The notes beneath the pieces are model-generated. The model saw only the letters and a program-made list of their open reading frames with translations. It did no database searches and was not told where the DNA came from. Positions 1,828 through 29,062 of a stretch of 33,807 nt of DNA are shown here, piece by piece. Origin of the DNA: Escherichia phage vB_EcoM-12474III; sequence record NC_049457.1. One strand, written 5' to 3'. The stretch's first letter is position 1. Each line of letters opens with the position of its first letter. The position numbers were made by a program, and so were the translations under genes.

Positions 1828-3600
1828 ATGACCATCACCACAGACACCACTCTTTTACACGACCCGCGTCGTCAGGCGGCGCTGCTGTACTGGCAGGGGT
1901 TTTCCGTGCCGCAGATTGCCGCCATGTTGCAGATGAAACGCCCGACGGTGCAGAGCTGGAAACAGCGCGACGGCTGGGACAGCGTTGCCCCCATCAGCCG
2001 TGTCGAAATGAGTCTGGAAGCGCGGCTGACCCAGCTCATCATCAAACCGCAGAAAACCGGCGGTGACTTCAAGGAAATTGACCTGCTGGGACGCCAGATT
2101 GAACGACTGGCACGGGTAAACCGTTACAGTCAGACCGGCAACGAGGCAGACCTTAATCCGAACGTCGCTAACCGCAACAAAGGCGGGCGGCGCAAACCGA
2201 AAAAGAATTTTTTCAGTGACGAGGCCATCGAAAAGCTGGAGCAGATTTTCTTTGAGCAGTCTTTCGAATATCAGCTGCACTGGTATCGCGCCGGGCTTGA
2301 GCACCGCATCCGCGATATCCTGAAATCCCGCCAGATTGGCGCGACGTTTTATTTTTCCCGCGAGGCGCTGCTGCGCGCCCTGAAAACCGGCCATAACCAG
2401 ATTTTTCTGTCGGCCAGTAAAACGCAGGCGTATGTGTTCCGCGAATACATCATCGCCTTTGCCCGTCTGGTTGACGTTGACCTGACCGGTGACCCGATTG
2501 TCCTGGGCAATAACGGTGCAAAACTGATTTTTCTCGGCACCAACTCCAACACCGCACAGAGCCATAACGGCGACCTGTACGTCGATGAGATTTTCTGGAT
2601 CCCGAATTTTCAGGTACTGCGTAAGGTAGCATCAGGTATGGCCTCACAGAGTCACCTGCGTTCGACCTATTTCTCCACCCCGTCCACGCTGGCGCACGAC
2701 GCCTACCCGTTCTGGTCGGGTGAACTGTATAACCGGGGACGCGCCAGCGCCGCCGAACGCGTGGAAATCGACGTCAGTCATAACGCCCTTGCCGGTGGGC
2801 TTCTCTGTGCGGACGGCCAGTGGCGACAGATTGTCACCATTGAGGACGCCCTGAAAGGTGGCTGCACGCTGTTCGACATTGAGCAGCTCAAACGCGAAAA
2901 CAGCGCCGACGATTTTAAAAACCTGTTCATGTGTGAATTTGTTGACGACAAGGCGTCGGTGTTCCCGTTCGAGGAGCTGCAACGCTGCATGGTCGACACG
3001 CTGGAAGAATGGGAAGACTATGCACCCTTTGCCGCCAATCCGTTCGGCTCCCGCCCGGTATGGATTGGTTACGACCCGTCACACCGTGGCGACAGCGCCG
3101 GATGCGTGGTGCTGGCACCGCCGGTGGTGGCCGGTGGCAAATTCAGAATACTTGAGCGTCACCAGTGGAAAGGCATGGACTTTGCCACCCAGGCTGAATC
3201 CATCCGCAAACTCACCGAAAAATATAACGTCGAATACATCGGTATTGATGCCACCGGCCTCGGTGTCGGCGTGTTCCAGCTCGTGCGCTCGTTCTATCCC
3301 GCCGCGCGCGACATCCGCTACACGCCGGAAATGAAAACCGCAATGGTGCTCAAGGCAAAAGACGTTATCCGCCGTGGCTGTCTGGAATATGACGTCAGCG
3401 CCACCGACATCACCAGCTCGTTTATGGCTATCCGCAAGACCATGACCAGCAGCGGACGCAGCGCCACCTATGAGGCCAGCCGCAGCGAGGAAGCCAGCCA
3501 CGCCGACCTCGCCTGGGCGACCATGCACGCCCTGTTAAATGAGCCACTCACCGCCGGTATCAGCACCCCGCTGACATCCACCATTCTGGAGTTTTACTGA
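1828..3600 (+). CDS. P: Terminase ATPase (large) subunit gpP
   Basis: MTITTDTTLLHDPRRQAALLYWQGFSVPQIAAM... (590 aa from the ATG at 1828) matches P2 gpP; divergent from O as in P2. Confidence 0.92.
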   Translation: MTITTDTTLLHDPRRQAALLYWQGFSVPQIAAMLQMKRPTVQSWKQRDGWDSVAPISRVEMSLEARLTQLIIKPQKTGGDFKEIDLLGRQIERLARVNRYSQTGNEADLNPNVANRNKGGRRKPKKNFFSDEAIEKLEQIFFEQSFEYQLHWYRAGLEHRIRDILKSRQIGATFYFSREALLRALKTGHNQIFLSASKTQAYVFREYIIAFARLVDVDLTGDPIVLGNNGAKLIFLGTNSNTAQSHNGDLYVDEIFWIPNFQVLRKVASGMASQSHLRSTYFSTPSTLAHDAYPFWSGELYNRGRASAAERVEIDVSHNALAGGLLCADGQWRQIVTIEDALKGGCTLFDIEQLKRENSADDFKNLFMCEFVDDKASVFPFEELQRCMVDTLEEWEDYAPFAANPFGSRPVWIGYDPSHRGDSAGCVVLAPPVVAGGKFRILERHQWKGMDFATQAESIRKLTEKYNVEYIGIDATGLGVGVFQLVRSFYPAARDIRYTPEMKTAMVLKAKDVIRRGCLEYDVSATDITSSFMAIRKTMTSSGRSATYEASRSEEASHADLAWATMHALLNEPLTAGISTPLTSTILEFY

Positions 3601-4634
3601 TGAGCAAGAAAAAAGGGAAAACACCGCAACCTGCGGCAAAAAAAATGACCGCCAGCGCCCCGAAAATGGAGGCATTCACCTTTGGTGAGCCGGTGCCGGT
3701 ACTCGACCGCCGTGACATTCTGGATTACGTCGAGTGCATCAGTAACGGCAGATGGTATGAGCCGCCGGTCAGCTTTACCGGTCTGGCAAAAAGCCTGCGT
3801 GCTGCCGTACATCACAGCTCACCGATTTACGTCAAACGTAATATTCTGGCCTCGACATTTATCCCGCATCCGTGGCTTTCCCAGCAGGATTTCAGCCGCT
3901 TTGTGCTGGATTTTCTGGTGTTCGGTAATGCGTTTCTGGAAAAGCGTTACAGCACTACCGGTAAGGTCATCAGACTGGAAACCTCACCGGCGAAATATAC
4001 CCGTCGTGGCGTGGAAGAGGATGTTTACTGGTGGGTGCCGTCCTTCAACGAGCCGACAGCCTTCGCGCCCGGCTCCGTGTTTCATCTGCTGGAGCCGGAT
4101 ATTAATCAGGAGCTGTACGGCCTGCCGGAATATCTCAGCGCCCTTAACTCTGCCTGGCTGAATGAGTCGGCCACGCTGTTCCGCCGCAAGTATTACGAAA
4201 ACGGCGCTCATGCCGGATATATCATGTACGTCACTGATGCCGTGCAGGATCGCAACGATATCGAAATGCTCCGCGAAAACATGGTGAAGTCGAAAGGCCG
4301 CAACAACTTTAAAAATCTGTTTCTCTATGCCCCACAGGGGAAAGCCGACGGCATCAAAATTATCCCGCTCAGTGAAGTGGCAACGAAGGACGATTTTTTT
4401 AATATCAAAAAAGCCAGCGCCGCTGACCTGCTGGACGCGCACCGCATCCCCTTTCAGTTGATGGGCGGCAAGCCGGAGAACGTCGGGTCACTGGGCGATA
4501 TTGAGAAAGTGGCAAAGGTCTTTGTCCGCAATGAGCTTATCCCGTTACAGGATAGGATCCGCGAGATAAACGGCTGGCTCGGTCAGGAGGTCATCCGCTT
4601 TAAAAACTACTCACTGGACACTGACAACGGCTGA
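3600..4634 (+). CDS. Q: Portal protein gpQ
   Basis: 344-aa ORF MSKKKGKTPQPAAKKMTASAPKMEAFTFGEP...; same length as P2 gpQ; its start overlaps the P stop (TGATG). Confidence 0.92.
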   Translation: MSKKKGKTPQPAAKKMTASAPKMEAFTFGEPVPVLDRRDILDYVECISNGRWYEPPVSFTGLAKSLRAAVHHSSPIYVKRNILASTFIPHPWLSQQDFSRFVLDFLVFGNAFLEKRYSTTGKVIRLETSPAKYTRRGVEEDVYWWVPSFNEPTAFAPGSVFHLLEPDINQELYGLPEYLSALNSAWLNESATLFRRKYYENGAHAGYIMYVTDAVQDRNDIEMLRENMVKSKGRNNFKNLFLYAPQGKADGIKIIPLSEVATKDDFFNIKKASAADLLDAHRIPFQLMGGKPENVGSLGDIEKVAKVFVRNELIPLQDRIREINGWLGQEVIRFKNYSLDTDNG

Positions 4635-4803: not shown

Positions 4804-4822
4804 GTGCTTTCCCGCCTCGCCC
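4804..4822. other. cos: cos cohesive-end site (19 nt)
   Basis: Minus strand reads GGGCGAGGCGGGAAAGCAC, near-identical to the P2 cohesive end as I recall it (GGCGAGGCGGGGAAAGCAC); it lies about 170 bp beyond the Q stop, as in P2. Confidence 0.7.
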
Positions 4823-5008
4823 GCCCGCTTCATGGGTCGGTTTTAATGCAGTTGCATAACATATTATTCATAGCACCACTGTGAGTTTATGGCTTCATTT
4901 TAGCGAGTTACTTACGCATGCATTTTAATGCACATAATTGCAGTTCTAGCCTACGTTTAACTCCAGTGTTAATCTTTGCATATCACCATATCTAATGAGA
5001 TTAGAGTT

Positions 5009-6127
5009 ATGACAGAAAGCCTTGATTACATCGACCTCAATAAACTTGAGCTTGATACAAAAAATCCACGTCTTCCTGAAGGTGTTGAACGTACCCCAGA
5101 AGCAATGCTAAATCATATAGCTCTAACAACCTCTATTGAAGACTTGATGAATGCAATCGCAGAAAATGGATTTTTTCCTGGCGAGCCTCTTATTGCGGTT
5201 AAAGAGGGAGATAAGTACACCGTTGTGGAAGGCAACCGTCGCTTAACGGCAGTTAAACTTATTCATAACCCATATGAGTGCGACAGACCCAGCTCCCGGA
5301 TGATAGAAATCGCCGAAAGCGCTAAAGATAAACTAGGTACACTAGAAAAATTACCAGTGATCGTTAGAGATACCAGAGCTGAAATTTTACCTTATTTGGG
5401 TTTCAGACATATCACTGGTGTCAAACAATGGGAACCTCTATCGAAGGCTCGTTATATCGAGCAACTTTTTGGGCTCACCTCCCCAAACTCACCGACTAAT
5501 GATCGATATCATCAGGTTGCTCGTGCAATTGGTAGCAGAAAAGATCATATCAAGAGAAATCTAGATGCTTTAGCCGTTTATAAAGTAATGGAGAGCAATA
5601 ACTTTTATGATATTGATGGATTAGATGAAGAATCGATCAAGTTTTCAATTTTATCTACAGCCTTAGCTGACGAGAAAATTGGATTGTTTGTTGGCGTCTC
5701 AGAAAAAGACGAATATGGTGATATTACATCCAATGATGTAATAATTCACCCACATCATATAAATAGAGAAAATACCAGAGAACTTACACTATGGCTTTAT
5801 AAAAAGGATGATTCCGGGAAAACAAAGGTTGGAGAGTCCCGAAATTTACGCCTATTATCTTCTGTTATTGATAACCCCAAGGCTTTAACGTCCTTTAGAA
5901 ACGGGGCTGACCTTAAGGTTGCGTATCAGTTAACTGAAGACTTAAAACAAGATTTCATGACGTTACTTTATAAAGCTGAATCTGCATTAATTGAAGCGGC
6001 TGGAATTGTTGCAACCATTGATTACAATCCTGAAGCATTGGAAGTTGCAAGACGCCTAAGTCAAAATGTCAAACTTATTGGTAATACAATTAAAGCCAAA
6101 AAGGTTTCTGACGATGAAGATTTTTAA
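5009..6127 (+). CDS. ParB/Srx-fold (ParB N-terminal nuclease-like) domain protein, cargo gene
   Basis: N-terminus carries ParB-type motifs DTKNPR (aa 16-21) and VVEGNRRLTAV (aa 72-82, the GxRR box); ATG at 5009 follows a GAG-rich RBS; AT-rich relative to the core; overlaps the start of the next gene. Confidence 0.6.
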   Translation: MTESLDYIDLNKLELDTKNPRLPEGVERTPEAMLNHIALTTSIEDLMNAIAENGFFPGEPLIAVKEGDKYTVVEGNRRLTAVKLIHNPYECDRPSSRMIEIAESAKDKLGTLEKLPVIVRDTRAEILPYLGFRHITGVKQWEPLSKARYIEQLFGLTSPNSPTNDRYHQVARAIGSRKDHIKRNLDALAVYKVMESNNFYDIDGLDEESIKFSILSTALADEKIGLFVGVSEKDEYGDITSNDVIIHPHHINRENTRELTLWLYKKDDSGKTKVGESRNLRLLSSVIDNPKALTSFRNGADLKVAYQLTEDLKQDFMTLLYKAESALIEAAGIVATIDYNPEALEVARRLSQNVKLIGNTIKAKKVSDDEDF

Positions 6128-7106
6128 AATCGGAGACATTCATCCTAGTGTTCCTCATCTTTTTGCAGACCTTGCAGAACTTGCTACGGTTATAAATTAT
6201 TCTGGTCGTTATGATCTACATAAAAATGACCTCATAACAATAAGAACTCAAAGTAACACAAGTGTGGATGATATTGATCAAGAATATCAAGAAGATGAAA
6301 ATGAAGGCTGCGATGCTGAACGCAATGACCGTTTAGAAAGACAAGTTGAAGATGTCTGGACGCAACTCGATTTTAGACAAAATTTTCTCAAGGATATTTA
6401 TCCATTTATTATTAATGGTGACTTTATTTCATTGAAAGAAAACCTCACTGAGATACAAAGAATATATATTTTCTTACTCGCATGCTCGAGGTTACGTTCT
6501 TTCACAAAGGCTAGGCAAGGAATAATACAGTTTTGGGCAAAAAATTTTGCTGTCGTAAGTAAATTTTGTGCAACAGCACTACTCCCAGCACACTCAACTG
6601 TACGAGTATTTGACGCAAACTCAGATGACAGGCGAAAATATTATGGTACTGATTTAAGAAAAGCCTTGAAAAGGCTAGGAAAAGACTTAGCTGTTCCTTA
6701 TATTAATGAGCAAGAGTGCGAAAGAGCTGATCCGAGAGGTGATGGTGGTTTTGATATAGTTGCAACTATAGAATTTGAAGATAAATTAAGTAGTAACTTT
6801 GCCTTTTTAGGTCAATGTGGAGCCCAAGAAAGAGATTGGCCCAAAAAAACACTTGAAGCCCACTCATTGAAACTACGAACATATTTTCAAGTGCATTTTG
6901 ACATACCAACTCTAATGTTTACCCCCGTATTCTATCGAAACTCAGATGGTCAATGGGTAGACAATAGCCCTTGCGCTGGAGTATTGATCATTGACAGAGC
7001 AAGGATATTACAGCTTTTAAAAAAGACAAACCATTGCCCTAAAATAGTTTCAGAACAATGGTTTCTTGATTTCGAACAAATTATCAATGATCTTAAGGTC
7101 GAATAA
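6114..7106 (+). CDS. Hypothetical protein with a possible PD-(D/E)xK nuclease motif; operon partner of the ParB-fold gene
   Basis: ATG at 6114 overlaps the upstream gene end (6127); protein contains RGDGGFDIVATIEFEDK (aa 208-224), reminiscent of the Mrr-type GDGGxD ... ExK catalytic signature; AT-rich. Confidence 0.5.
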   Translation: MKIFKIGDIHPSVPHLFADLAELATVINYSGRYDLHKNDLITIRTQSNTSVDDIDQEYQEDENEGCDAERNDRLERQVEDVWTQLDFRQNFLKDIYPFIINGDFISLKENLTEIQRIYIFLLACSRLRSFTKARQGIIQFWAKNFAVVSKFCATALLPAHSTVRVFDANSDDRRKYYGTDLRKALKRLGKDLAVPYINEQECERADPRGDGGFDIVATIEFEDKLSSNFAFLGQCGAQERDWPKKTLEAHSLKLRTYFQVHFDIPTLMFTPVFYRNSDGQWVDNSPCAGVLIIDRARILQLLKKTNHCPKIVSEQWFLDFEQIINDLKVE

Positions 7107-8045
7107 CTAATCCCAAATATCTGGAAGAGATTTAGCAACCGCCTCAAATAAAGGAGGCGGAACAGCATTGCCAACTACTGTATACTTCATATTAATAGAA
7201 GCCCGTTCAGTTTCTGGAAAAATTAGGTCTCCAAAACCCTGTAAAATAGCGGCCTCTCGATAACTAAACCTACGAGCTGGTGCATCCGAAGTAAATTGCC
7301 ACTTATCTGGACCCAATTTTTCTAATGTTGGACTTATTGGATGTAGAGGCATATGTCTAGGATTTGCAACAATTGTTTTAGATATCTGATCCCAATCTTG
7401 CCGACGGTTGCGCGATAGATAATACCAATGAAAATCGGCATCATAAAACTCACCAATAGGCCAAACAGGCATATGACCAATAGCATCACGAATTGTTGAA
7501 TATGGTTTCAAGCCATCACCATGTGTTGGTTTTGGAAATTTGTATGTAATACCATAGTCTTTTCGTATTCCTACGATAAAGATTCTCTTCCTATCTTGTG
7601 ATACGCCATAGTGGGACGCATTCAGAATTTGCGAGCTTACTGTATAACCTGCTTCTTCGAAAACTTTGAATTGATCCTTTAACAAATGTTCAAAGTTACG
7701 CCTTACCATTCCAGAAACATTCTCTACAATGAATGCTTTTGGCTTAATCTTTCTCAAAGCACGAGCAAACTCTAAATATAGAGTATTAATCTTTCTATCT
7801 GCCTTCCTTGCTCCACCCTGGCTAAATCCCTGGCAAGGATAGCATCCGATAAGCAATTCGGCAGAAGGGAACGATTGGAGTCCTGAAATATCGCCCAATA
7901 TGTAATCAGTTTCAGGATGGTTTTCTAAGTAAACGTCCCTTGCATAAGGCAAAATATCGTTTGCCATCAGCACATTGAACCCTGCTCTCAAAACTCCCGC
8001 ATCAGAACCACCACATCCAGAAAAAAGTGAAACTACAGTTGGCAT
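7107..8045 (-). CDS. DNA (cytosine-5)-methyltransferase
   Basis: Canonical C5-MTase motifs: FSGCGG (motif I, aa 8-13), PCQGFS (motif IV, aa 70-75), ENV (motif VI, aa 108-110), a QDRKR motif (VIII-like) and a C-terminal GNAVPPPL; convergent with, and abutting, the 6114..7106 gene. Confidence 0.88.
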   Translation of the reverse strand: MPTVVSLFSGCGGSDAGVLRAGFNVLMANDILPYARDVYLENHPETDYILGDISGLQSFPSAELLIGCYPCQGFSQGGARKADRKINTLYLEFARALRKIKPKAFIVENVSGMVRRNFEHLLKDQFKVFEEAGYTVSSQILNASHYGVSQDRKRIFIVGIRKDYGITYKFPKPTHGDGLKPYSTIRDAIGHMPVWPIGEFYDADFHWYYLSRNRRQDWDQISKTIVANPRHMPLHPISPTLEKLGPDKWQFTSDAPARRFSYREAAILQGFGDLIFPETERASINMKYTVVGNAVPPPLFEAVAKSLPDIWD

Positions 8046-8257
8046 CGCCCCTCCTAAAAACCGACCGCGTATTATAGCGAAACCACCCCTTGGGAAAAGC
8101 TAGATTTCGCCAAGTTTTGATATTCTCATGTTTTAGTAGTTGTGGCCATCTTTAACGAGAGAAAGATGAAATTGAGTTCTCATTAATTTTCAATAGGTTT
8201 AATTGTAAACACAGCAGGAATCAAAGCTAACACGTCGCTACGCTCATTGTTCAACCC

Positions 8258-8290
8258 CGCCATCTCTGAAAACAAGTTTCAGAAATGGCG
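8258..8290. promoter_or_regulatory. Imperfect palindrome upstream of the methyltransferase gene
   Basis: cgccatctctgaaa-acaag-tttcagaaatggcg, 13/14 complementary arms; sits in an AT-rich spacer about 210 bp upstream of the MTase start. Confidence 0.35.
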
Positions 8291-8296
8291 AGTATA

Positions 8297-8542
8297 CTAC
8301 ATCCTATGCGGTAGTTTCTTAGGCATGTTTGCTGGTCGAAATACCTCAATTTTCTGTCTACTGATATCGTTAAACCGTCTGTAATTATCCCGGACCATTT
8401 CGGCACACCCGACCAGCTCATCAGGCGTCAGATTTTCGTTGACCATAATCTGCTGTAGACGGTGGACAATGGCCATCAGCTTGATATTTTTAGTTTTATG
8501 CTGCGGTATCTCGCCTGGTATTCTGTGCATTATCCAAGCCAC
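8297..8542 (-). CDS. Small hypothetical protein (81 aa; start uncertain, possibly 8476)
   Basis: ORF only; occupies the position of the small post-A ORFs in P2-like phages. Confidence 0.4.
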   Translation of the reverse strand: MAWIMHRIPGEIPQHKTKNIKLMAIVHRLQQIMVNENLTPDELVGCAEMVRDNYRRFNDISRQKIEVFRPANMPKKLPHRM

Positions 8543-8982
8543 CCGTTTTGCTGTGCACGCTCCATCTGTTCATCTGAATAGTTCCATGCTCCATCCGTGG
8601 CAACCATTGCCCCGCCAGACACCCCCGTCTCTGGTTCATACATAACAGCAAGGCCGAGCTGATGCATAATTTCATGATTAATTCTGAATACCAGGCCACG
8701 CTCACTAAGTTCTTTCCAGTTCACAATCTCATATGCGCTTGTATTAAGCAGCTCAATACTTAGCAAGACATAATCTTCCAGCCAGTCTGACAGGTCAGTA
8801 ACATCTGTTATCCGGGCTTCAACCTTTCGCCCCGTAAACACACCCTGTACCCATTCATGCAAAATCAGCGTATCCCCGCGCTCATAATTACGGTCATTTT
8901 TCCGAAACTCTGCACGTTTCTTTCCTTCCAGCACAAGGTCGAAATATTTTGCGTGCAGCTTTACCTCGTGAATTTTTGCCAT
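8530..8982 (-). CDS. ASCH/DUF3850-like protein with a C-terminal HExxH motif
   Basis: MAKIHEVKLHAKYFDLVLEGKKRAEFRKNDRNYERGDTLILHEW... resembles PUA-like ASCH/DUF3850 domains; C-terminal part contains HEIMH followed by YEPE; ATG at 8982 overlaps the end of A. Confidence 0.6.
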   Translation of the reverse strand: MAKIHEVKLHAKYFDLVLEGKKRAEFRKNDRNYERGDTLILHEWVQGVFTGRKVEARITDVTDLSDWLEDYVLLSIELLNTSAYEIVNWKELSERGLVFRINHEIMHQLGLAVMYEPETGVSGGAMVATDGAWNYSDEQMERAQQNGWLG

Positions 8983-11267
8983 GATGTCCACTCCATTACT
9001 GTTGAGAATCCCGGCCACACATCAGCGACCAGATACGTGAATTTTTTTCCGTCATAATTTACGGTTGCTCCACGCGCCAGCGCCTCAAGTTCCCATCGCT
9101 GAGGCCAGATGCCGTTCTGAGCAAGGTCAACACGGATACGGGTAATTTGCATACGCTCCGACCGGGTCAGCCTGGCCGATGGCGCTATTTCATTCGGTTT
9201 TAACGGGCTTCCGTTTCTTTGCTGACGGTTTGGTGTTCTCAGGCCGTGTTTTAATGCGCCCCTGAGCGCCCTCACGACCTCCGGGTCATTCCATTCGATA
9301 ACACCGTCATCAACCAGATTAAGCACGGCTGCGGCGCGCTCAGAAGGTGTGGGAGCCGGTAACGAAGTATCACCACCGGTGAGCTTTCCACAGTTATTGA
9401 CAGGACTCCGAGGCGCGGCGATGCCGCTTTTTAAAGTCAAAGGCTCAACGACCGGCACTTTCGGAACAATGCGCCAGTCCGTCGTTCTGGTGATATGAAT
9501 ATGACGCGCGCCGAGATGCGGCGCGTAAATGCCGACCACTCTCTCGACTTCTTCCTCGTACTCGTTAACTTCATCCGACGGACTACGGGCGACCCTGACA
9601 GTCTGACAATCGCGCGGGACATTTGCCCCACCCTGCGCGCTGATATACAGCGCAAAATCACCACTGTCTGCGGCGGCGCGTGCAGCCTCGACGCGCTCGT
9701 CAAACTCATCAGCAATGCTGACGCCGCGAGGCAATTTGCGTAGTTCACGGTAAGCCCCCATTGTCGGCAGGCCAACCGTTTTAAATTGCGGAATGCGCCA
9801 CGTTGACGCCCATGCGGTAACAGCCGCGGCAGTATCTTTCAGCGGTCTGCCGGTATCGTTATCGAGCTGCCCATCCAGTGCATAGCCGTCGATATTTTTT
9901 GAGATGTATTTCGCGATATACCCCGCAGCACCGCCCCGATTAAGATGTTTTGCCTGAAAACGGTTTCGCGCGGCTCCTCTTTCGTCGCCATCCTCTTTGA
10001 GCGCATAGCGACGCATGATTTCAATAATCTGGTTACGCTGGCGTGGATTACAAAAAAGCATCATATGCCAGTGCGGCGTTCCGTCGTGGTGTGGCTCAAC
10101 GACACGCAAACCGTAGGCCTGTAAATCATTATCCTTGAATGCCGTGCGCATCAGGCTCCAGATACGGCAGAGATAACGCTGCGCATCCTTTGGATTAAAT
10201 GCCTCATGGTTCCAGCCGTGATTAAGCTGGACGGTTTTACTTTCGCCTTTTCCGACCTGACGTGTCGGGTGATACTTTGACGGCGCGGTCAGCGTGATAA
10301 ACATCCCCACATCACCCTCTGCGGCGGCGTAACGCTCAATACCGGCAATGGTGTTCATCAGCTCCATCCGGCGAATTTCAGGATTAGAAATACTGCCCAT
10401 CACCTTACTGATAAGGTCGATGCGTTCGCCGGTTTCCCTGTTTTCAAGGTCACACGATTTAAGAAATTCCAGATTTGCCTGGCGGCGTGCACGTACATCA
10501 CGAATGGCATGTTTACTGGCATAAGGAGAACGGTCTTTATTCACCGCCCCGACAGCAATCAGTAACGCCTCATGCCAGCGCATACGCTGGCCTTTAAGCT
10601 GATGAGCCCACCACTCATCGTTAAACAGACGGGCAATGGCAGAATATGCCTGCCTCGTGGTCATCTGCCCTTTACGGTATTTTTTCCAGTAGAGAGGGGA
10701 AATATTGAAAGCTCGTGCAGCGCCAGCAACATGACCATACAGGTGAGCCTGCGCCTCATCCGTAAACAGCGATTCTTTCTCGCCATGCGCATCCACCCAG
10801 GCATCGCTGAGTTCCTCATACATCATGAAAAGCTGCGATGAGATACGGGCGGCAAATTTTTTCAGCTCCTTGTCATTCATTCCCGGCAGGCGCGCATAGT
10901 GGTCACGCTCTGCCAGAAACAGTAACGACGCGTCGGTGTTCATTTCATGGCGCTGATTCACACGCTCAATGCGCGGCCATAAACGACGCTGAAAAGTGGA
11001 TGTGAGAAAATAAAACCCGTGCACCGGGCTTTTATTGCGCCGGATGTAGTCATAGCGTGAAGTAAACAGCGAGCGCAAAAAGTAAGGCAGGCGGTTAATC
11101 GTGGATAAAACACCTTGCACCTGACGCATCTCGTCACGTGTAAGGGGTCTTTCGCGCCCGACAGCCTCGCGTGGCGCGTTCCATGCATAAGCACCGGTAA
11201 ACGCCTTACCGGTGCCTGCGGCAAATGCTGACGGAGGGACAAAACGCCCGGAGGCTTTAACGGCCAT
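8961..11267 (-). CDS. A: Rolling-circle replication initiator endonuclease gpA
   Basis: Long ORF; from MAVKASGRFVPPSAFAAGTGK... it matches P2 gpA as I recall it (about 761 aa); start chosen at that Met. Confidence 0.9.
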   Translation of the reverse strand: MAVKASGRFVPPSAFAAGTGKAFTGAYAWNAPREAVGRERPLTRDEMRQVQGVLSTINRLPYFLRSLFTSRYDYIRRNKSPVHGFYFLTSTFQRRLWPRIERVNQRHEMNTDASLLFLAERDHYARLPGMNDKELKKFAARISSQLFMMYEELSDAWVDAHGEKESLFTDEAQAHLYGHVAGAARAFNISPLYWKKYRKGQMTTRQAYSAIARLFNDEWWAHQLKGQRMRWHEALLIAVGAVNKDRSPYASKHAIRDVRARRQANLEFLKSCDLENRETGERIDLISKVMGSISNPEIRRMELMNTIAGIERYAAAEGDVGMFITLTAPSKYHPTRQVGKGESKTVQLNHGWNHEAFNPKDAQRYLCRIWSLMRTAFKDNDLQAYGLRVVEPHHDGTPHWHMMLFCNPRQRNQIIEIMRRYALKEDGDERGAARNRFQAKHLNRGGAAGYIAKYISKNIDGYALDGQLDNDTGRPLKDTAAAVTAWASTWRIPQFKTVGLPTMGAYRELRKLPRGVSIADEFDERVEAARAAADSGDFALYISAQGGANVPRDCQTVRVARSPSDEVNEYEEEVERVVGIYAPHLGARHIHITRTTDWRIVPKVPVVEPLTLKSGIAAPRSPVNNCGKLTGGDTSLPAPTPSERAAAVLNLVDDGVIEWNDPEVVRALRGALKHGLRTPNRQQRNGSPLKPNEIAPSARLTRSERMQITRIRVDLAQNGIWPQRWELEALARGATVNYDGKKFTYLVADVWPGFSTVMEWTSWQKFTR

Positions 11268-11532
11268 ATGAGCCAAAAGCCTCTGAACAACGCTTGCTGA
11301 GTTGCTCAACCTGCGCGTTTAAATCAGCAAAAGACTTTGCGCTTCCGGTCAGAATATCGTGATGCATCAGGCCGGAAACGAGCTGGCTTAATTTCGGGTA
11401 ATAACCAACCACTGCCAGCCATTCCTGACCGACGTTTTTACCGCTTTCCGCTCTCTTTTTCTCGTGGAGAATAAACTGAAAGCTGTCACTGGTAACGACA
11501 TAACGTTCGCCAATTTCAATACGAATACTCAT
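11257..11532 (-). CDS. Hypothetical protein, P2 orf83-like by position
   Basis: 91-aa ORF directly upstream of and overlapping A, as in P2. Confidence 0.6.
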   Translation of the reverse strand: MSIRIEIGERYVVTSDSFQFILHEKKRAESGKNVGQEWLAVVGYYPKLSQLVSGLMHHDILTGSAKSFADLNAQVEQLSKRCSEAFGSYGR

Positions 11533-13731: not shown

Positions 13732-13800
13732 CACTCTATAAACATTACATTTTCACTATTTGTTACCAAGATGGTGAATACAGCGTCAGAGGGCTTTCTT

Positions 13801-14781
13801 ATGTCAATTAAGAAGCTCGATGATGGACGCTATGAAGTGGACATTAGACCTCGCGGTCGCGACGGAAAACGCATCCGCAGGAAATTTGAAAGAAAAGCTG
13901 AGGCTGTAGCATTTGAGCGATACACAATCGCCTACGCCAGCCAGAAAGAATGGGCAGGTCAGCGAGCAGATCGCAGAACTTTGAGTGAGTTGCTGGACAT
14001 CTGGTGGAAATATCACGGGCAAAACCACGAGCATGGAACAAAAGAGTTTAATCATCTGCTCAAAACCATCAGCGGCATAGGTGATATACCAGTGAGCCGG
14101 ATGAGCAAAAGAGCTTTGATGGATTATCGTTCCATGCGACTACGTGATGGTATCAGTGCCGCAACGATAAACCGTGACATGTACCGATTATCCGGCATGT
14201 TCACAAAATTAATTCAATTGGATGAATTTTCCGGGCAACACCCAATTCACGGACTGCCGCCACTGGCGGAGGCCAACCCTGAAATGACGTTCCTGGAAAA
14301 AGCAGAAATCGAAAAACTGTTAAATGTTTTGGATGGTGATGACTTACTTGTCGCACTTTTATGTCTGAGCACTGGAGGAAGATGGACGGAAGTTGCCACG
14401 CTAAAACCAGCACAGATTACAAATTGCAGGGTTACCTTCCTGAAAACCAAAAACGGTAAAAAGCGAACCGTGCCGATTTCTGAGGAACTGGAGAAAAAAG
14501 TTAAAGAGGAGGCCAGCGCTAAATTATTCAAAGTTGATTATGAGAAGTTTTGCGGGATTTTACGCAGAGTGAAGCCAGATATACCACCCAATCAGGCAAC
14601 CCACATCCTGCGGCATACATTCGCAAGCCATTTCATGATGAATGGGGGCAATATAATCGCACTGCAACAGATTCTGGGACATGCGAGCATTCAGCAGACG
14701 ATGGCCTATGCGCACCTTGCGCCTGACTACCTGCAAAATGCCGTCGCACTGAATCCTCTAAAAGGCGGAGTGACGTTATAA
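13801..14781 (+). CDS. int: Tyrosine integrase
   Basis: MSIKKLDDGRYEVDIRP... (P2 Int-like N-terminus); C-terminal HILRHTFASHFMMNGG ... LGH ... MAYAHL tyrosine-recombinase motifs. Confidence 0.9.
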   Translation: MSIKKLDDGRYEVDIRPRGRDGKRIRRKFERKAEAVAFERYTIAYASQKEWAGQRADRRTLSELLDIWWKYHGQNHEHGTKEFNHLLKTISGIGDIPVSRMSKRALMDYRSMRLRDGISAATINRDMYRLSGMFTKLIQLDEFSGQHPIHGLPPLAEANPEMTFLEKAEIEKLLNVLDGDDLLVALLCLSTGGRWTEVATLKPAQITNCRVTFLKTKNGKKRTVPISEELEKKVKEEASAKLFKVDYEKFCGILRRVKPDIPPNQATHILRHTFASHFMMNGGNIIALQQILGHASIQQTMAYAHLAPDYLQNAVALNPLKGGVTL

Positions 14782-21973: not shown

Positions 21974-23056
21974 TTGAAACCAGAGCAAATGAAAAACAGG
22001 GAAGAATTAACTAGCTTTGCAACGAAACTTGCTACTCAAATCAAGATGCAAACCAGCAGCAATTTAAATGATCTTTCTACAGCCCAAGAGAGCTCGCTAT
22101 TGCCTCTAATCAATCATGCCTGGGGAGAGCAGTTTGAGGATATGAATAGGATATCCCAAAACTACCCTGGTCTCGACTATGTGCAACCGGGAAAGCGCTT
22201 AGGTTTGCAAATGACTGCCACTGCAAGAAAGGTTAAGTATCAGAAAACATTAGACAAACTTCGAAATAATGAGAAGTTAAAGGGTAAGTTTGACGAGATT
22301 TGGTTTTTCGTCCTCACGGCTGAACGCCTACCTGATAACGTACGTGAACACCCTGACGATTTTCAGTGCAAATATTTCACATTGTACGACCTAGTCGAAA
22401 AGGTAATGGGACAGACTTTAGAATTTCAGCGTGATTTTTTGACCCTTGCCCGGAAAGAATACTCGGATTATTTCTCTCCTGGGGACGTTGCTTTCAATCA
22501 GGGGTATTGTGTATCAGAAAACAAGCCGATCCCCTTTGACTTGAGTCTTTTCAACGCGTTAATTCATACTAATGAATGGTTTGATGATGTTGACGAAGGT
22601 GAGCAGATCGTATATGAATTTCTAGAACTTTTTAAAAATAGACTGCGTCAATGCACTTTATCTGCTAGAAATCTTTTAAGCAAAATTATCAGTGAGATAA
22701 ATATACCGAAGAGTACAAGCACGAAAATCGAGTTTCCTGAAAAGCAACTTTTCGGGCCACTAATGATTGACGATACAAACTATCAATCTTTTTCAAAAGA
22801 CCTTGATGATTTGTTCGAGATGAGTCTTATTGAACGATGGGACAATTATGTTGGAATGTACTATAAGGGTGATGATGCATATATCAAAAATGAACGTATG
22901 ATCAGCGTGTCATTTCCAAAGATTGAACCCGAAATGAATCTGTATGCGGCGTTATATATCTTTTATGAAAAAAATCATGATATTGCAAAACTTGTGAACG
23001 CAATTGAAAATAGTGATTTTTCTCTGCTCGCTGACAGCACTTGCCAAAATAATTAG
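21974..23056 (+). CDS. Hypothetical 360-aa protein, AT-rich cargo between FI and G (start TTG at 21974 with GGAG 8 nt upstream; alternative ATG at 21989)
   Basis: Long ORF on the strand opposite to all flanking late genes; visibly AT-rich codon usage; no transmembrane segments; no family recognised. Confidence 0.7.
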   Translation: MKPEQMKNREELTSFATKLATQIKMQTSSNLNDLSTAQESSLLPLINHAWGEQFEDMNRISQNYPGLDYVQPGKRLGLQMTATARKVKYQKTLDKLRNNEKLKGKFDEIWFFVLTAERLPDNVREHPDDFQCKYFTLYDLVEKVMGQTLEFQRDFLTLARKEYSDYFSPGDVAFNQGYCVSENKPIPFDLSLFNALIHTNEWFDDVDEGEQIVYEFLELFKNRLRQCTLSARNLLSKIISEINIPKSTSTKIEFPEKQLFGPLMIDDTNYQSFSKDLDDLFEMSLIERWDNYVGMYYKGDDAYIKNERMISVSFPKIEPEMNLYAALYIFYEKNHDIAKLVNAIENSDFSLLADSTCQNN

Positions 23057-28276: not shown

Positions 28277-29062
28277 ATGGTCAGCTATAATGTGACTAAT
28301 GTGTGGGGGCTAATCGTTTTTTTCCTTTGTAGCTTTGCAGTATTAGCATTTTTTAGCTTTGGTAAAAGTAACCTTATGAGGCTTATTGCACATTATTTCA
28401 ATTTTGGATATTCAGACAAAAAATTAAAAAGACTTGACCGCGAGTGGCGCGACATTCAACTATTTAAAATAATTAACGGAATCAATGTATCAGGCATTGA
28501 AAATGTGAGAATGATACAGCAGGGACTGATTGATGGAAAACTAAAAACATCGTATTTTTTCCTTACTCGCATCTGGGGTGACATAACAAAACCACCACAC
28601 ATAATTAAAACAATAATTGTAATTCTGGCCAGTATTTTTTACATTCTCCTCGCATGTTATATACACAACAAACAATCCGCTATAGTAAGAGATGCCATAG
28701 GCATACCATATAAAAATATGATGTACTATGTTTATAGTGACAAAGTTCTTTTATCCTTCAACAATAAAACAGTTGAATTCAATAAAACTTATAGCCTTGC
28801 CGATTGCAAGAGGCTACGAAACGTATTTATAAAAGACACACTTCCTGAGATCGCCTGCAATAAGCTCTTACAGCTAAACGAGGAGGACTCCGAATGGTTA
28901 AGTCAGGAGATTAAAGATAATAACAGCCAAAAAAAAGCATTATTAATAATATCCCTCATCTATTTCATTTCAGGTCTGGTTATATTCCTGTCATATACAA
29001 AATTCCTTTACGCCAATAAGAAGGTTGTAGAATACAAAGCATCAAATAAAAATCACTCATAA
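28277..29062 (+). CDS. Predicted membrane protein (261 aa), AT-rich cargo between V and S
   Basis: ATG at 28277 with an AGGAG RBS 6 nt upstream; three hydrophobic helix-like segments (aa about 10-30, 115-135, 225-245); strongly AT-rich; strand opposite to the flanking late genes. Confidence 0.75.
   Translation: MVSYNVTNVWGLIVFFLCSFAVLAFFSFGKSNLMRLIAHYFNFGYSDKKLKRLDREWRDIQLFKIINGINVSGIENVRMIQQGLIDGKLKTSYFFLTRIWGDITKPPHIIKTIIVILASIFYILLACYIHNKQSAIVRDAIGIPYKNMMYYVYSDKVLLSFNNKTVEFNKTYSLADCKRLRNVFIKDTLPEIACNKLLQLNEEDSEWLSQEIKDNNSQKKALLIISLIYFISGLVIFLSYTKFLYANKKVVEYKASNKNHS

What the first reader, a model, noticed from the sequence alone, without database searches (positions are those of the whole stretch)
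4850..8296. AT-rich three-gene cargo island next to cos: ParB-fold protein plus nuclease-like partner, tail-to-tail with a C5-cytosine methyltransferase
This slot lies between cos and the post-A small genes, where P2 carries its old and tin exclusion genes as I recall. Here it holds a translationally overlapping two-gene operon (5009..6127 and 6114..7106) and a convergent C5-MTase (7107..8045) whose stop abuts the operon stop with no gap. The block is visibly AT-rich against the GC-rich backbone, indicating horizontal acquisition. A methyltransferase paired with two nuclease-fold proteins could be a restriction-modification-like or modification-linked anti-phage system. I could not match the pair to any named defense family from sequence alone.
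Basis: partly seen in the sequence, partly recalled or inferred. Interest (0 to 1): 0.85.

Follow-up and report, generated by a model that had tools for sequence, protein, structure and literature searches.

The report
ParB-like, nuclease-like, cytosine methylase cassette
Next to the packaging site of this P2-like phage sits a three-gene cassette (a ParB/KorB-like DNA-binding protein, a restriction-enzyme-like protein and a cytosine methylase). The same trio travels together in many mobile elements, so it is most likely an uncharacterised methylation-linked anti-phage system, though nobody has tested it.

Summary
Genes A (5009-6127), B (6114-7106, overlapping A by 14 nt) and a convergent C5-methylase M (7107-8045, stop codons abutting) lie in a 34-42% GC block, against a 53-59% GC backbone. 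The block sits between cos and the replication gene A, which is the P2 tin/old hotspot.

- **A:** a full ParB/KorB-type protein with the nucleotide-binding N-domain (NPRLP and EGNRRL motifs), an HTH DNA-binding domain and a helical C-domain. It is not a nuclease fold.
- **B:** belongs to no modelled family. Its predicted structure is a winged helix plus a restriction-endonuclease-like domain, with a conserved GDxGxD...QC...K..E signature.
- **M:** aligns with M.HaeIII over its full length, so it probably methylates GGCC.

The trio is real. A C5-methylase flanks A-B in 15 of 19 informative loci, in four different gene orders. In 5,426 complete E. coli genomes, M (140 genomes) occurs only beside one of two A-B types (36 + 104).

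The closest validated relative is PD-lambda-5 (ParB/HEPN + Dam-like methylase), but this cassette is not a member. It is listed, unnamed and untested, in the P2 hotspot table of Rousset 2022 and as Wphi gp98/gp96/mth.

Best reading (about 0.5): an R-M-like defence in which M marks self DNA and A-B attacks unmarked DNA.

The parts
4804..4822 (.). cos region (context: left border of the island)
   Evidence: Ends of the linear phage records vB_EcoM-12474II/IV/V and L-413C map to window ~4804-4818. The sequence agtgctttcccgcctcgcc matches the P2 cohesive end as I recall it (own knowledge).
4823..5008 (+). AT-rich leader and presumed promoter region of the A-B operon, with short TTTTAATGCA / TTGCATA repeats
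   Evidence: The consensus scan found no sigma-70 match of 9/12 or better here, so the promoter is inferred, not shown. Homology to Wphi and HQ103 stops at ~4857-4859.
5009..6127 (+). Gene A: ParB/KorB-like protein, 372 aa. It has an N-terminal ParB/Srx nucleotide-binding fold, a ParB-type HTH DNA-binding domain, a helical C-domain and an invariant acidic tail ending in F.
   Evidence: Sequence hits: Pfam ParB_N is weak; PADLOC PD-Lambda-5_A covers residues 5-158 at E 7.5e-23, and PDC-M38A covers residues 41-316.

Invariant motifs are NPRLP, EGNRRL and LGFRHITG..W.PL.KARY, with DDxF at the C-terminus. PHROG assignment is phrog_3694, unknown function.
6114..7106 (+). Gene B: 330-aa protein of an unmodelled family, with an N-terminal winged helix and a C-terminal restriction-endonuclease-like (Mrr/MspJI/NgoMIV-like) domain
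   Evidence: No Pfam, PADLOC or NCBIfam family matches.

The signature GDxGxD(210-214)...QC(234-235)...K245..E248 is kept down to ~25% identity.

Family size: 277 homologues and 1,141 50%-identity clusters. PHROG assignment is phrog_3984, unknown function.
7107..8045 (-). Gene M: C5-cytosine DNA methyltransferase, M.HaeIII-like over its full length including the target-recognition domain. Probable specificity is GGCC (inferred).
   Evidence: - PF00145, E 3.7e-62.
- The best PADLOC models are DruM2 (370 bits) and MTase_II.
- PDB 1dct M.HaeIII aligns at E 1.3e-49, residues 4-307 against 3-320, with the SRNR...LHP recognition-domain stretch aligned.
- 98% amino-acid identity to Wphi Mth, with dN/dS 0.04.
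8046..8296 (-). Upstream region of M (presumed promoter and leader), shared with Wphi
   Evidence: DNA homology to Wphi runs uninterrupted from 7108 to beyond 9300 at 91%. No promoter was demonstrated.
8297..8542 (-). Small AT-rich ORF (81 aa) between the orf91-like gene and M. Membership of the cassette is not established.
   Evidence: It matches phrog_11386, unknown function. GC here is still 0.42. It is largely removed (to 8489), together with B and M, by the L-413C deletion of 5920-8489. It is absent from the non-P2 loci.

Best explanation
The island is a self-contained three-gene, methylation-linked defence cassette carried as a moron in the P2 tin/old hotspot.

- **M:** an M.HaeIII-like C5-methylase, probably making GGm5CC. 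It marks the resident DNA (host chromosome and prophage).
- **A and B:** translationally coupled and co-evolving, so they most likely act as a complex.
- **A as sensor or loader:** it is a ParB/KorB-type protein with the conserved nucleotide-binding motifs and an HTH domain. I propose it binds DNA and reads its methylation state.
- **B as effector:** it has a winged helix plus a restriction-endonuclease-like domain with a conserved acidic/lysine signature. I propose it cuts DNA that lacks M's mark, such as an incoming phage or plasmid.

**Shown:** gene structure, folds, motif conservation, and conserved three-gene linkage.

**Inferred:** anti-phage activity, the A-B complex, nuclease activity of B, nucleotide dependence of A, the GGCC specificity of M, and protection by methylation.
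For: **Location.** The cassette sits in a validated defence hotspot. P2 carries tin and old between gpA and the portal gene, and many systems have been validated there (PMC9519451; PMC9122126).

**Linkage.**
- A-B is always adjacent and usually overlapping.
- A PF00145 MTase lies next to A-B in the window, Wphi, HQ103, Pseudomonas phage D14A, and in Pseudomonas, Burkholderia, Methylophilaceae, Edwardsiella, Pusillimonas, Methylomonas and Halomonas elements.
- It also lies next to very distant B homologues, in other orders: A-B-M and M-A-B co-directional, and HNH-M-A-B.
- In 5,426 complete E. coli genomes M occurs in 140. Of these, 36 carry the window-type A-B and 104 the Wphi-type.

**Selection and co-evolution.**
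- M is under strong purifying selection (dN/dS 0.04).
- A and B identities co-vary (Spearman 0.93).

**Folds and motifs.**
- B has a restriction-endonuclease-like fold and a superfamily-wide GDxGxD...QC...K..E motif.
- A has the ParB fold with NPRLP and EGNRRL motifs conserved across the superfamily.

**Validated analogue.** PD-lambda-5 (ParB/HEPN + methyltransferase) gives broad phage protection and carries an active MTase, since it needed a delta-mrr host. A's N-domain is homologous to PD-lambda-5_A.
Against: - There is no experimental test of this cassette here or in the searched literature.
- Four loci have A-B with no C5-MTase within the fetched flanks: L015 (an IS element follows B), L017, L019, and L022 with two A-B pairs. 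B's motif is fully intact in L017 and L019, and intact in L015 except E248 replaced by A. A-B is therefore not obviously lethal without an adjacent M.
- M does not co-diverge with A-B (Spearman ~0.03). The same M (98% identical) serves two A-B types that are only 25-32% identical.
- Two loci carry an extra HNH_2 nuclease next to M, which might be M's real restriction partner there.
Confidence: 0.5

Rival explanations
1. A-B is a stand-alone sensor-effector (possibly abortive-infection) system. M is a functionally separate partner that is merely co-selected. M could protect the phage's own DNA from host GGCC-type restriction, or the arrangement could be an 'RM + Abi' one as proposed for PD-lambda-5, in which A-B guards or backs up methylation-based immunity rather than reading M's mark.
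For: - A-B occurs without an adjacent MTase in 4 of 19 loci, with B's motif fully intact in two of them and nearly intact in a third.
- The phylogeny of M is decoupled from that of A-B.
- The A-B cassette was swapped against an unchanged M between window-type and Wphi-type phages.
- PD-lambda-5 is described as a compacted RM+Abi system.
- Menshen is proposed (from comparative genomics and structure prediction) to use a ParB-like sensor and a nuclease effector, without a methylase.
Against: - The 140/140 co-occurrence in E. coli, and retention of a PF00145 MTase through four gene orders and down to ~25% B identity, are hard to explain without functional coupling.
- Stop-to-stop abutment or a 4-nt overlap between B and M recurs in several loci.
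Confidence: 0.2
2. The cassette is a DNA-modification module, not a restriction module. The ParB-like A (perhaps with B) activates or targets the methylase M on double-stranded DNA, as phage ParB homologues activate 5-methylpyrimidine dioxygenases. The benefit would be anti-restriction or epigenetic control for the phage.
For: - A phage ParB homologue is required to activate its cognate T-dioxygenase on dsDNA (PMC13229309).
- In the validated system PD-lambda-5, a ParB-domain protein is likewise encoded next to a DNA methyltransferase.
- M is the most conserved of the three genes.
Against: - M.HaeIII-type enzymes are active on their own (established knowledge).
- A does not co-evolve with M, whereas the dioxygenase ParBs show cognate specificity.
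- A-B exists without M.
- B's conserved nuclease-like signature has no role in this model.
Confidence: 0.1
3. A-B is a modification-dependent (type IV-like) restriction pair, analogous to GmrS/GmrD or BrxU (ParB-like NTPase plus nuclease). It would attack modified phage DNA, with M's own mark not recognised.
For: - B's closest structural matches include the modification-dependent enzymes MspJI and AspBHI, and Mrr-type nuclease domains.
- ParB/DUF262-fold plus nuclease is the GmrSD/SspE architecture (own knowledge; Menshen paper).
Against: - A has no DUF262 hit and B has no DUF1524/HNH hit.
- The model gives no reason for the conserved C5-MTase neighbour. It would risk self-restriction if m5C were the target.
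Confidence: 0.07
4. The cassette has a non-defence function: plasmid-like partition, transcriptional regulation (KorB-like) or another housekeeping role for the prophage.
For: A has a complete ParB/KorB-type N-domain plus HTH. Short repeats lie upstream of A.
Against: - There is no ParA or KorA partner, and no parS-like array was found.
- The element integrates (integrase at 13771..14781).
- The cassette is dispensable and replaced by unrelated cargo in most P2-like phages, and it is deleted in L-413C.
- It travels with a methylase and a nuclease-like protein in unrelated mobile elements.
Confidence: 0.03

Closest known systems
PD-lambda-5 (Vassallo et al. 2022, PMC9519451): ParB/HEPN protein + methyltransferase, validated in E. 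coli
   Same: - Two-part logic: a ParB-fold protein carrying or accompanied by a nuclease-type effector, plus a DNA methyltransferase.
- A's residues 5-158 match PD-Lambda-5_A models (E 7.5e-23).
   Different: - The match covers only the ParB N-domain (profile positions 4-166 of 466).
- PD-lambda-5A carries a weak HEPN-like C-terminus instead of the HTH plus helical domain.
- Its methylase is Dam-like (PF02086), not C5 (PF00145).
- There is no counterpart of B.
Wphi gp98 / gp96 / Mth, and the 'DNA_methylase + hypothetical + ParBc' entry of the P2 hotspot catalogue (Rousset et al. 2022)
   Same: Same slot and same architecture (A-B convergent with M). M is 98% identical.
   Different: - A is only 32% identical and B only 25%. 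This is a second subtype, which lacks the DDxF tail.
- It is annotated only as hypothetical proteins and was never tested (no mention in the main text).
Classical type II restriction-modification (e.g. HaeIII, BspRI; GGCC)
   Same: An M.HaeIII-like methylase sits tail-to-tail with a gene for a restriction-endonuclease-fold protein. The cassette is mobile and AT-rich.
   Different: - The putative restriction function is split over two co-evolving proteins, one of them a ParB/KorB-type NTP-binding protein.
- B has no sequence match to any REase family.
- Some A-B pairs lack a neighbouring methylase.
SspABCD-SspE, Dnd and GmrSD/BrxU (ParB/DUF262-fold NTPase coupled to a nuclease, reading a DNA modification)
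   Same: The concept: a ParB/Srx-fold nucleotide-dependent sensor coupled to a nuclease, discriminating DNA by its modification state (own knowledge; for ParB-DUF262 in Menshen).
   Different: - A is of the ParB/KorB type with an HTH, not DUF262.
- The nuclease is PD-(D/E)xK-like and a separate protein, not DUF1524/HNH.
- The modification is m5C, not phosphorothioate or hmC.
Chromosomal and plasmid ParB/KorB/Noc CTP-switch proteins
   Different: - The box III region is LGFRHITG rather than ENLQR.
- There is no ParA or KorA partner and no parS array.
- The C-domain is different, with an acidic tail.
- The genomic context is a defence hotspot.

Membership tests
C5-cytosine DNA methyltransferase (PF00145), M.HaeIII-like | Full set of conserved motifs over the whole length, including the PCQ catalytic Cys and ENV | tested here: met
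   PF00145 E 3.7e-62, residues 3-307 against profile 2-322/324. The sequence shows GCYPCQGFS and ENVSGM.
C5-cytosine DNA methyltransferase (PF00145), M.HaeIII-like | GGCC specificity | not testable with these tools
   Only inferred. The protein aligns with M.HaeIII (1dct) across the recognition domain, with SRNR..W...T..A..R...LHP conserved. Methylation mapping is needed.
Type II restriction-modification system | Methylase adjacent to its cognate endonuclease gene | tested here: inconclusive
   M abuts B and the adjacency is conserved. Whether B (with A) is a cognate endonuclease is unknown.
Type II restriction-modification system | Endonuclease cleaves the unmethylated site and is blocked by the cognate methylation | not testable with these tools
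   This needs biochemistry or genetics. A-B pairs without a neighbouring MTase argue against an obligate dependence.
PD-(D/E)xK / Mrr-like nuclease superfamily (protein B) | Restriction-endonuclease-like alpha/beta core | tested here: inconclusive
PD-(D/E)xK / Mrr-like nuclease superfamily (protein B) | Catalytic D...(D/E/Q)xK motif | tested here: inconclusive
   GDGGFD and QC are conserved, but the position of the motif Lys is Gly (QCG). An invariant K245 and E248 follow 9-12 residues later. This could be a migrated lysine or an inactive site.
PD-lambda-5 | PD-Lambda-5_A-type ParB N-terminal domain | tested here: met
   E 7.5e-23, residues 5-158. Wphi gp98 matches likewise.
PD-lambda-5 | Rest of PD-Lambda-5_A (C-terminal HEPN-like part, ~450-500 aa protein) | tested here: not met
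   All matches stop at profile position ~166. A's remainder is an HTH plus helical domain.
PD-lambda-5 | PD-Lambda-5_B, a D12-class (Dam-like) methyltransferase | tested here: not met
   PD-lambda-5B is PF02086. M is PF00145, and no PD-Lambda-5_B model is among its 25 best PADLOC hits.
ParB/KorB CTP-switch family (protein A) | ParB/Srx N-domain fold with the GxxRxxA arginine patch, plus an HTH DNA-binding domain | tested here: met
ParB/KorB CTP-switch family (protein A) | CTP binding and hydrolysis, clamp closure, cognate loading site, ParA/KorA partner | not testable with these tools
   The box III equivalent is divergent (LGFRHITG). No ParA-like gene is in the cassette. No biochemical data are available.
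Menshen (NsnABC) | ParB-DUF262 NsnA + ABC-type ATPase NsnB + inPIN-nuclease NsnC | tested here: not met
   No Menshen model is among the PADLOC hits listed for A (25 of 26 shown), and B has no PADLOC hit at all. There is no ATPase gene in the cassette. Composition is as described in PMC12065111.
GmrSD / BrxU / SspE type IV-like enzymes | DUF262 N-domain and DUF1524 (His-Me) nuclease | tested here: not met
   Neither A nor B hits DUF262 or DUF1524.
Druantia type II | DruM methylase together with DruE helicase and DruF/DruG | tested here: not met
   M's best PADLOC model is DruM2 (2.8e-111), but no DruE, DruF or DruG homologue is in the window's island.

The most novel reading that the evidence does not exclude
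A is a nucleotide (CTP)-gated ParB-type DNA clamp, repurposed for self/non-self discrimination. It would load on DNA carrying unmethylated M-sites, slide or spread, and recruit or activate the B nuclease. In the window-type clade this could work through its invariant acidic DDxF tail. This would be a restriction system built on the ParB CTP switch rather than on an ATP-dependent translocase or a simple dimeric endonuclease. The A-B module would be exchangeable against a constant methylase.
Probability: 0.15. Interest if true: 0.85.

Novelty: new variant of a known kind. Interest (0 to 1): 0.62.

Why it matters
If it works as inferred, this is a widespread methylation-linked immunity module that has no name. 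The B superfamily alone has 1,141 clusters at 50% identity, and the cassette is in 140 of 5,426 complete E. coli genomes, including the O145:H28 outbreak lineage.

Its 'restriction' half is a ParB/KorB-type nucleotide-switch protein plus a nuclease-like protein with no family model. Current defence finders (PADLOC models, Pfam) do not recognise the pair, so it is missed in defensome surveys.

It would extend the ParB CTP-switch fold to non-self DNA discrimination. It would also give a genetically simple three-gene system in which the sensor-effector pair has been swapped against an unchanged methylase. That is a natural experiment on how specificity is shared between modification and restriction.

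Tried and rejected
- **Family searches for B.** Pfam, NCBIfam and PADLOC gave nothing significant, also when all 34 aligned members were scanned. A PDB sequence search gave only noise.
- **Fold library.** The afdb50 library was unavailable.
- **Species-representative genomes.** The scan returned only 9 loci, so statistics rest on a small, partly metagenomic sample.
- **Literature.** Searches for ParB + defence/CTP/methyltransferase, for the WP accessions of the Rousset table, for Wphi mth and for O145 methylomes found no functional study. The O145:H28 PacBio methylome reports adenine methylation only, so it is uninformative for m5C.
- **GGCC avoidance.** The observed/expected ratio of 0.67 in the window is too weak, and not specific enough, to argue for or against restriction pressure.
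- **Promoter scan.** It found nothing convincing upstream of A or M.
- **Rejected families.** Membership in PD-lambda-5, Menshen, GmrSD/SspE and Druantia II was considered and rejected (see the membership table). A partition function was rejected for lack of ParA and parS.
- One search gives the alignment to the deposited 1dct chain.


Full report
**1. What is in the sequence**

The window is a complete P2-like (Peduovirus) genome in vegetative gene order. The portal gene Q lies at 3600..4634, followed by a terminator. The ends of the linear phage records vB_EcoM-12474II/IV/V and L-413C map to window ~4804-4818, which marks cos.

To the right of cos lie three genes:
- Gene A, 5009..6127 (+), 372 aa.
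- Gene B, 6114..7106 (+), 330 aa. Its ATG at 6114 agrees with the N-termini of homologues, and it overlaps A by 14 nt.
- Gene M, 7107..8045 (-), 312 aa. B's TAA and M's TAG are directly adjacent.

Further right come an 81-aa ORF, the orf91-like DUF3850/ASCH gene, and replication gene A (8961..11309) on the minus strand. GC is 0.34-0.42 from 5001 to 8500, against 0.53-0.59 in the flanks.

**2. The three proteins**

*M* is a complete C5-cytosine methyltransferase (PF00145, E 3.7e-62). It aligns with the crystallised M.HaeIII over residues 4-307, including the target-recognition domain (SRNR...LHP stretch). GGCC is therefore the likely target, but this is inferred and not shown. Among PADLOC models its best match is DruM of Druantia type II, yet none of the other Druantia genes is present.

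*A* gives only weak sequence matches to ParB_N. With PADLOC, its first ~160 residues match PD-Lambda-5_A (E 7.5e-23) and residues 41-316 match the candidate PDC-M38A.
- A is thus a ParB/KorB-type protein with a nucleotide-binding N-domain, an HTH domain and a private helical C-domain.
- The motifs NPRLP (box I), EGNRRLxAxKL (the GxxRxxA arginine patch) and LGxRHxTG..W..LxKA are invariant, even in relatives about 32-44% identical.
- The window-type clade ends in an invariant acidic tail...DDxF.

*B* matches no Pfam, NCBIfam or PADLOC model, even when 34 members are scanned individually.
- These scores are modest. However, the signature GDxGxD...QC...W..K..E is kept down to ~25% identity. It resembles the Mrr/MspJI D...QxK motif with the lysine displaced.
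- Only B, then, has a nuclease-like fold. 'Two nuclease-fold proteins' is incorrect.

**3. Is the trio a unit?**

Yes, on comparative evidence.
- A and B are adjacent and usually overlapping in every locus examined. Their divergences co-vary (Spearman 0.93).
- An orthologous M (62-88% identical, with a conserved recognition domain) lies convergently right after B in many elements. These are Yersinia phage HQ103 (where it is unannotated), Pseudomonas phage D14A (in a different genome position), and integrative elements or prophages of Pseudomonas, Burkholderia, Methylophilaceae, Edwardsiella, Pusillimonas, Methylomonas and Halomonas.
- Very distant B homologues, taken from a profile search that found 1,141 clusters, still have a PF00145 methylase beside A-B, but in other arrangements. 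L025 and L030 are A-B-M co-directional. L031 is M-A-B, with a methylase whose recognition domain differs. L024 is HNH-M-A-B. Linkage that survives rearrangement is the classical sign of functional coupling.
- In 5,426 complete E. coli genomes M is present in 140. Of these, 36 carry the window-type A-B and 104 the Wphi-type A-B. No M is left over.

There are exceptions. Four of 19 informative loci show A-B without a C5-methylase in the fetched flanks:
- L015, where an IS element follows B;
- L017 and L019, which are chromosomal;
- L022, with two convergent A-B pairs.

B's motif is fully intact in L017 and L019, and intact in L015 apart from one substitution (E248 to A).

**4. A natural swap**

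Wphi and a related P2 isolate carry gp98/gp96/mth in the same slot. M is 98% identical (dN/dS 0.04), but A is 32% and B 25% identical. DNA homology between the window and Wphi runs from 7108, the first base of M's stop codon, to beyond 9300 at 91%. It is absent from 4860 to 7107.

The A-B pair has therefore been exchanged as a cassette against an unchanged methylase. Either both A-B types depend on the same mark, or A-B does not depend on M's specificity at all. This cuts both ways and is the main reason my confidence is moderate. L-413C has lost 5920-8489, which removes the end of A, all of B and M, and most of the small ORF.

**5. Relation to what is known**

The slot is the validated P2 defence hotspot (PMC9519451; PMC9122126).
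- Rousset et al. list 'DNA_methylase + hypothetical + ParBc' repeatedly in their hotspot table, but ParB is never mentioned in the main text. The cassette is catalogued but untested.
- PHROGs files A and B as phrog_3694 and phrog_3984, both 'unknown function'.
- The closest validated system is PD-lambda-5, 'ParB/HEPN, methyltransferase'. It protects broadly, had to be cloned in a delta-mrr host, and its authors regard it as a compacted RM+Abi system.
- The present cassette shares only the ParB N-domain with it. PD-lambda-5A continues into a HEPN-like region, and PD-lambda-5B is a Dam-like PF02086 enzyme. It is therefore an analogue, not a member.
- Menshen, GmrSD/SspE and Druantia II share single themes (a ParB-fold sensor, a nuclease effector, a DruM-like methylase) but fail their defining features (membership table).
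- A 2026 paper shows that phage ParB homologues can activate DNA-modifying dioxygenases. This motivates the rival in which A serves M rather than B.

**6. Most likely mechanism**

M marks resident DNA. A (sensor or loader, possibly nucleotide-gated) and B (effector nuclease) act together on unmarked incoming DNA.
- Shown: architecture, folds, motifs, linkage, and purifying selection on M.
- Inferred: the defence phenotype, the A-B complex, catalysis by B, nucleotide use by A, the GGCC site, and protection by methylation.

I put this at about 0.5. The rivals are A-B as a stand-alone system with M co-selected (0.2), A as an activator of M (0.1), a type IV-like system (0.07), and a non-defence function (0.03).

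**7. Verdict**

This is a real, coherent and widespread cassette. It is not an artefact and not chance. It is already visible in databases and in one supplementary catalogue, but it is unnamed, unmodelled and untested.

I rate it a new variant of a known kind: a methylation-linked defence with a ParB-fold component. It is a good experimental candidate because it is small and E. coli-native, and because it comes with a natural A-B swap and a natural deletion for comparison.

Noticed in passing
whole window: GATC is strongly under-represented: 28 sites against 129.5 expected from a trinucleotide Markov model (ratio 0.22). Most other 4-bp palindromes are near expectation; GGCC is 0.67 and CGCG 0.82.
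   Followed up: no
window 21974..23056 (+): A second AT-rich cargo gene (GC 0.35-0.42) between tail genes, in the Z/fun hotspot. It encodes a 360-aa protein with a SMEK_N domain (PF21941, 1.6e-19), and its N-terminus matches a PADLOC Argonaute-associated 'Aga_REase-PNTD' model (4e-18). It may be another defence gene.
   Followed up: partly
window 28277..29062 (+): A third AT-rich ORF (GC 0.34, 261 aa) among baseplate and tail genes (the P2 orf30 slot, as I recall). It has no Pfam or PADLOC match.
   Followed up: partly
window 6086..6127 (C-terminus of A) and homologues: The window-type A proteins all end in an acidic tail with a terminal Phe (DDEDF, DDDQF, EDEF and similar). This recalls the SSB and T7 gp2.5 C-terminal tails (own knowledge). 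Wphi-type and D14A-type A proteins lack the terminal Phe.
   Followed up: partly
L009 7165-7929, L010 3165-4097, L024 1537-2592: In two unrelated loci an orthologous HNH_2 (PF13391) nuclease gene (44% identity) sits next to M. It lies between B and M in the Methylophilaceae locus and upstream of M in L024. It may be a fourth component, or M's classical restriction partner.
   Followed up: partly
L022 (MT835579.1, human faecal phage scaffold) 2644-7522: Two divergent A-B pairs lie tail to tail, with no C5-methylase motif in the fetched 8.7 kb. Their B motifs are degenerate (QA instead of QC; GDxGxD missing in one).
   Followed up: partly
L020 (Yersinia phage HQ103, NC_070908) 2338-3288 (-): An intact M-family methylase ORF (590 bits to the M profile) is not annotated in the public record, which shows a ~1-kb gap there.
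   Followed up: yes
L001 (Yersinia phage L-413C) compared with window 5920-8489: L-413C carries only a C-terminally altered A gene. A single deletion removed the end of A, all of B and M, and most of the 81-aa ORF.
   Followed up: yes
window 13771..14781 (+): The integrase lies in the middle of the window, with tail genes following. The window is therefore a circularly permuted vegetative phage genome, not an integrated prophage with host flanks.
   Followed up: partly
window 4841-4985: Short direct repeats lie upstream of gene A: TTTTAATGCA twice, and TTGCATAACA / TTGCATATCA. They could be operator or loading sites but may be chance in AT-rich DNA.
   Followed up: no
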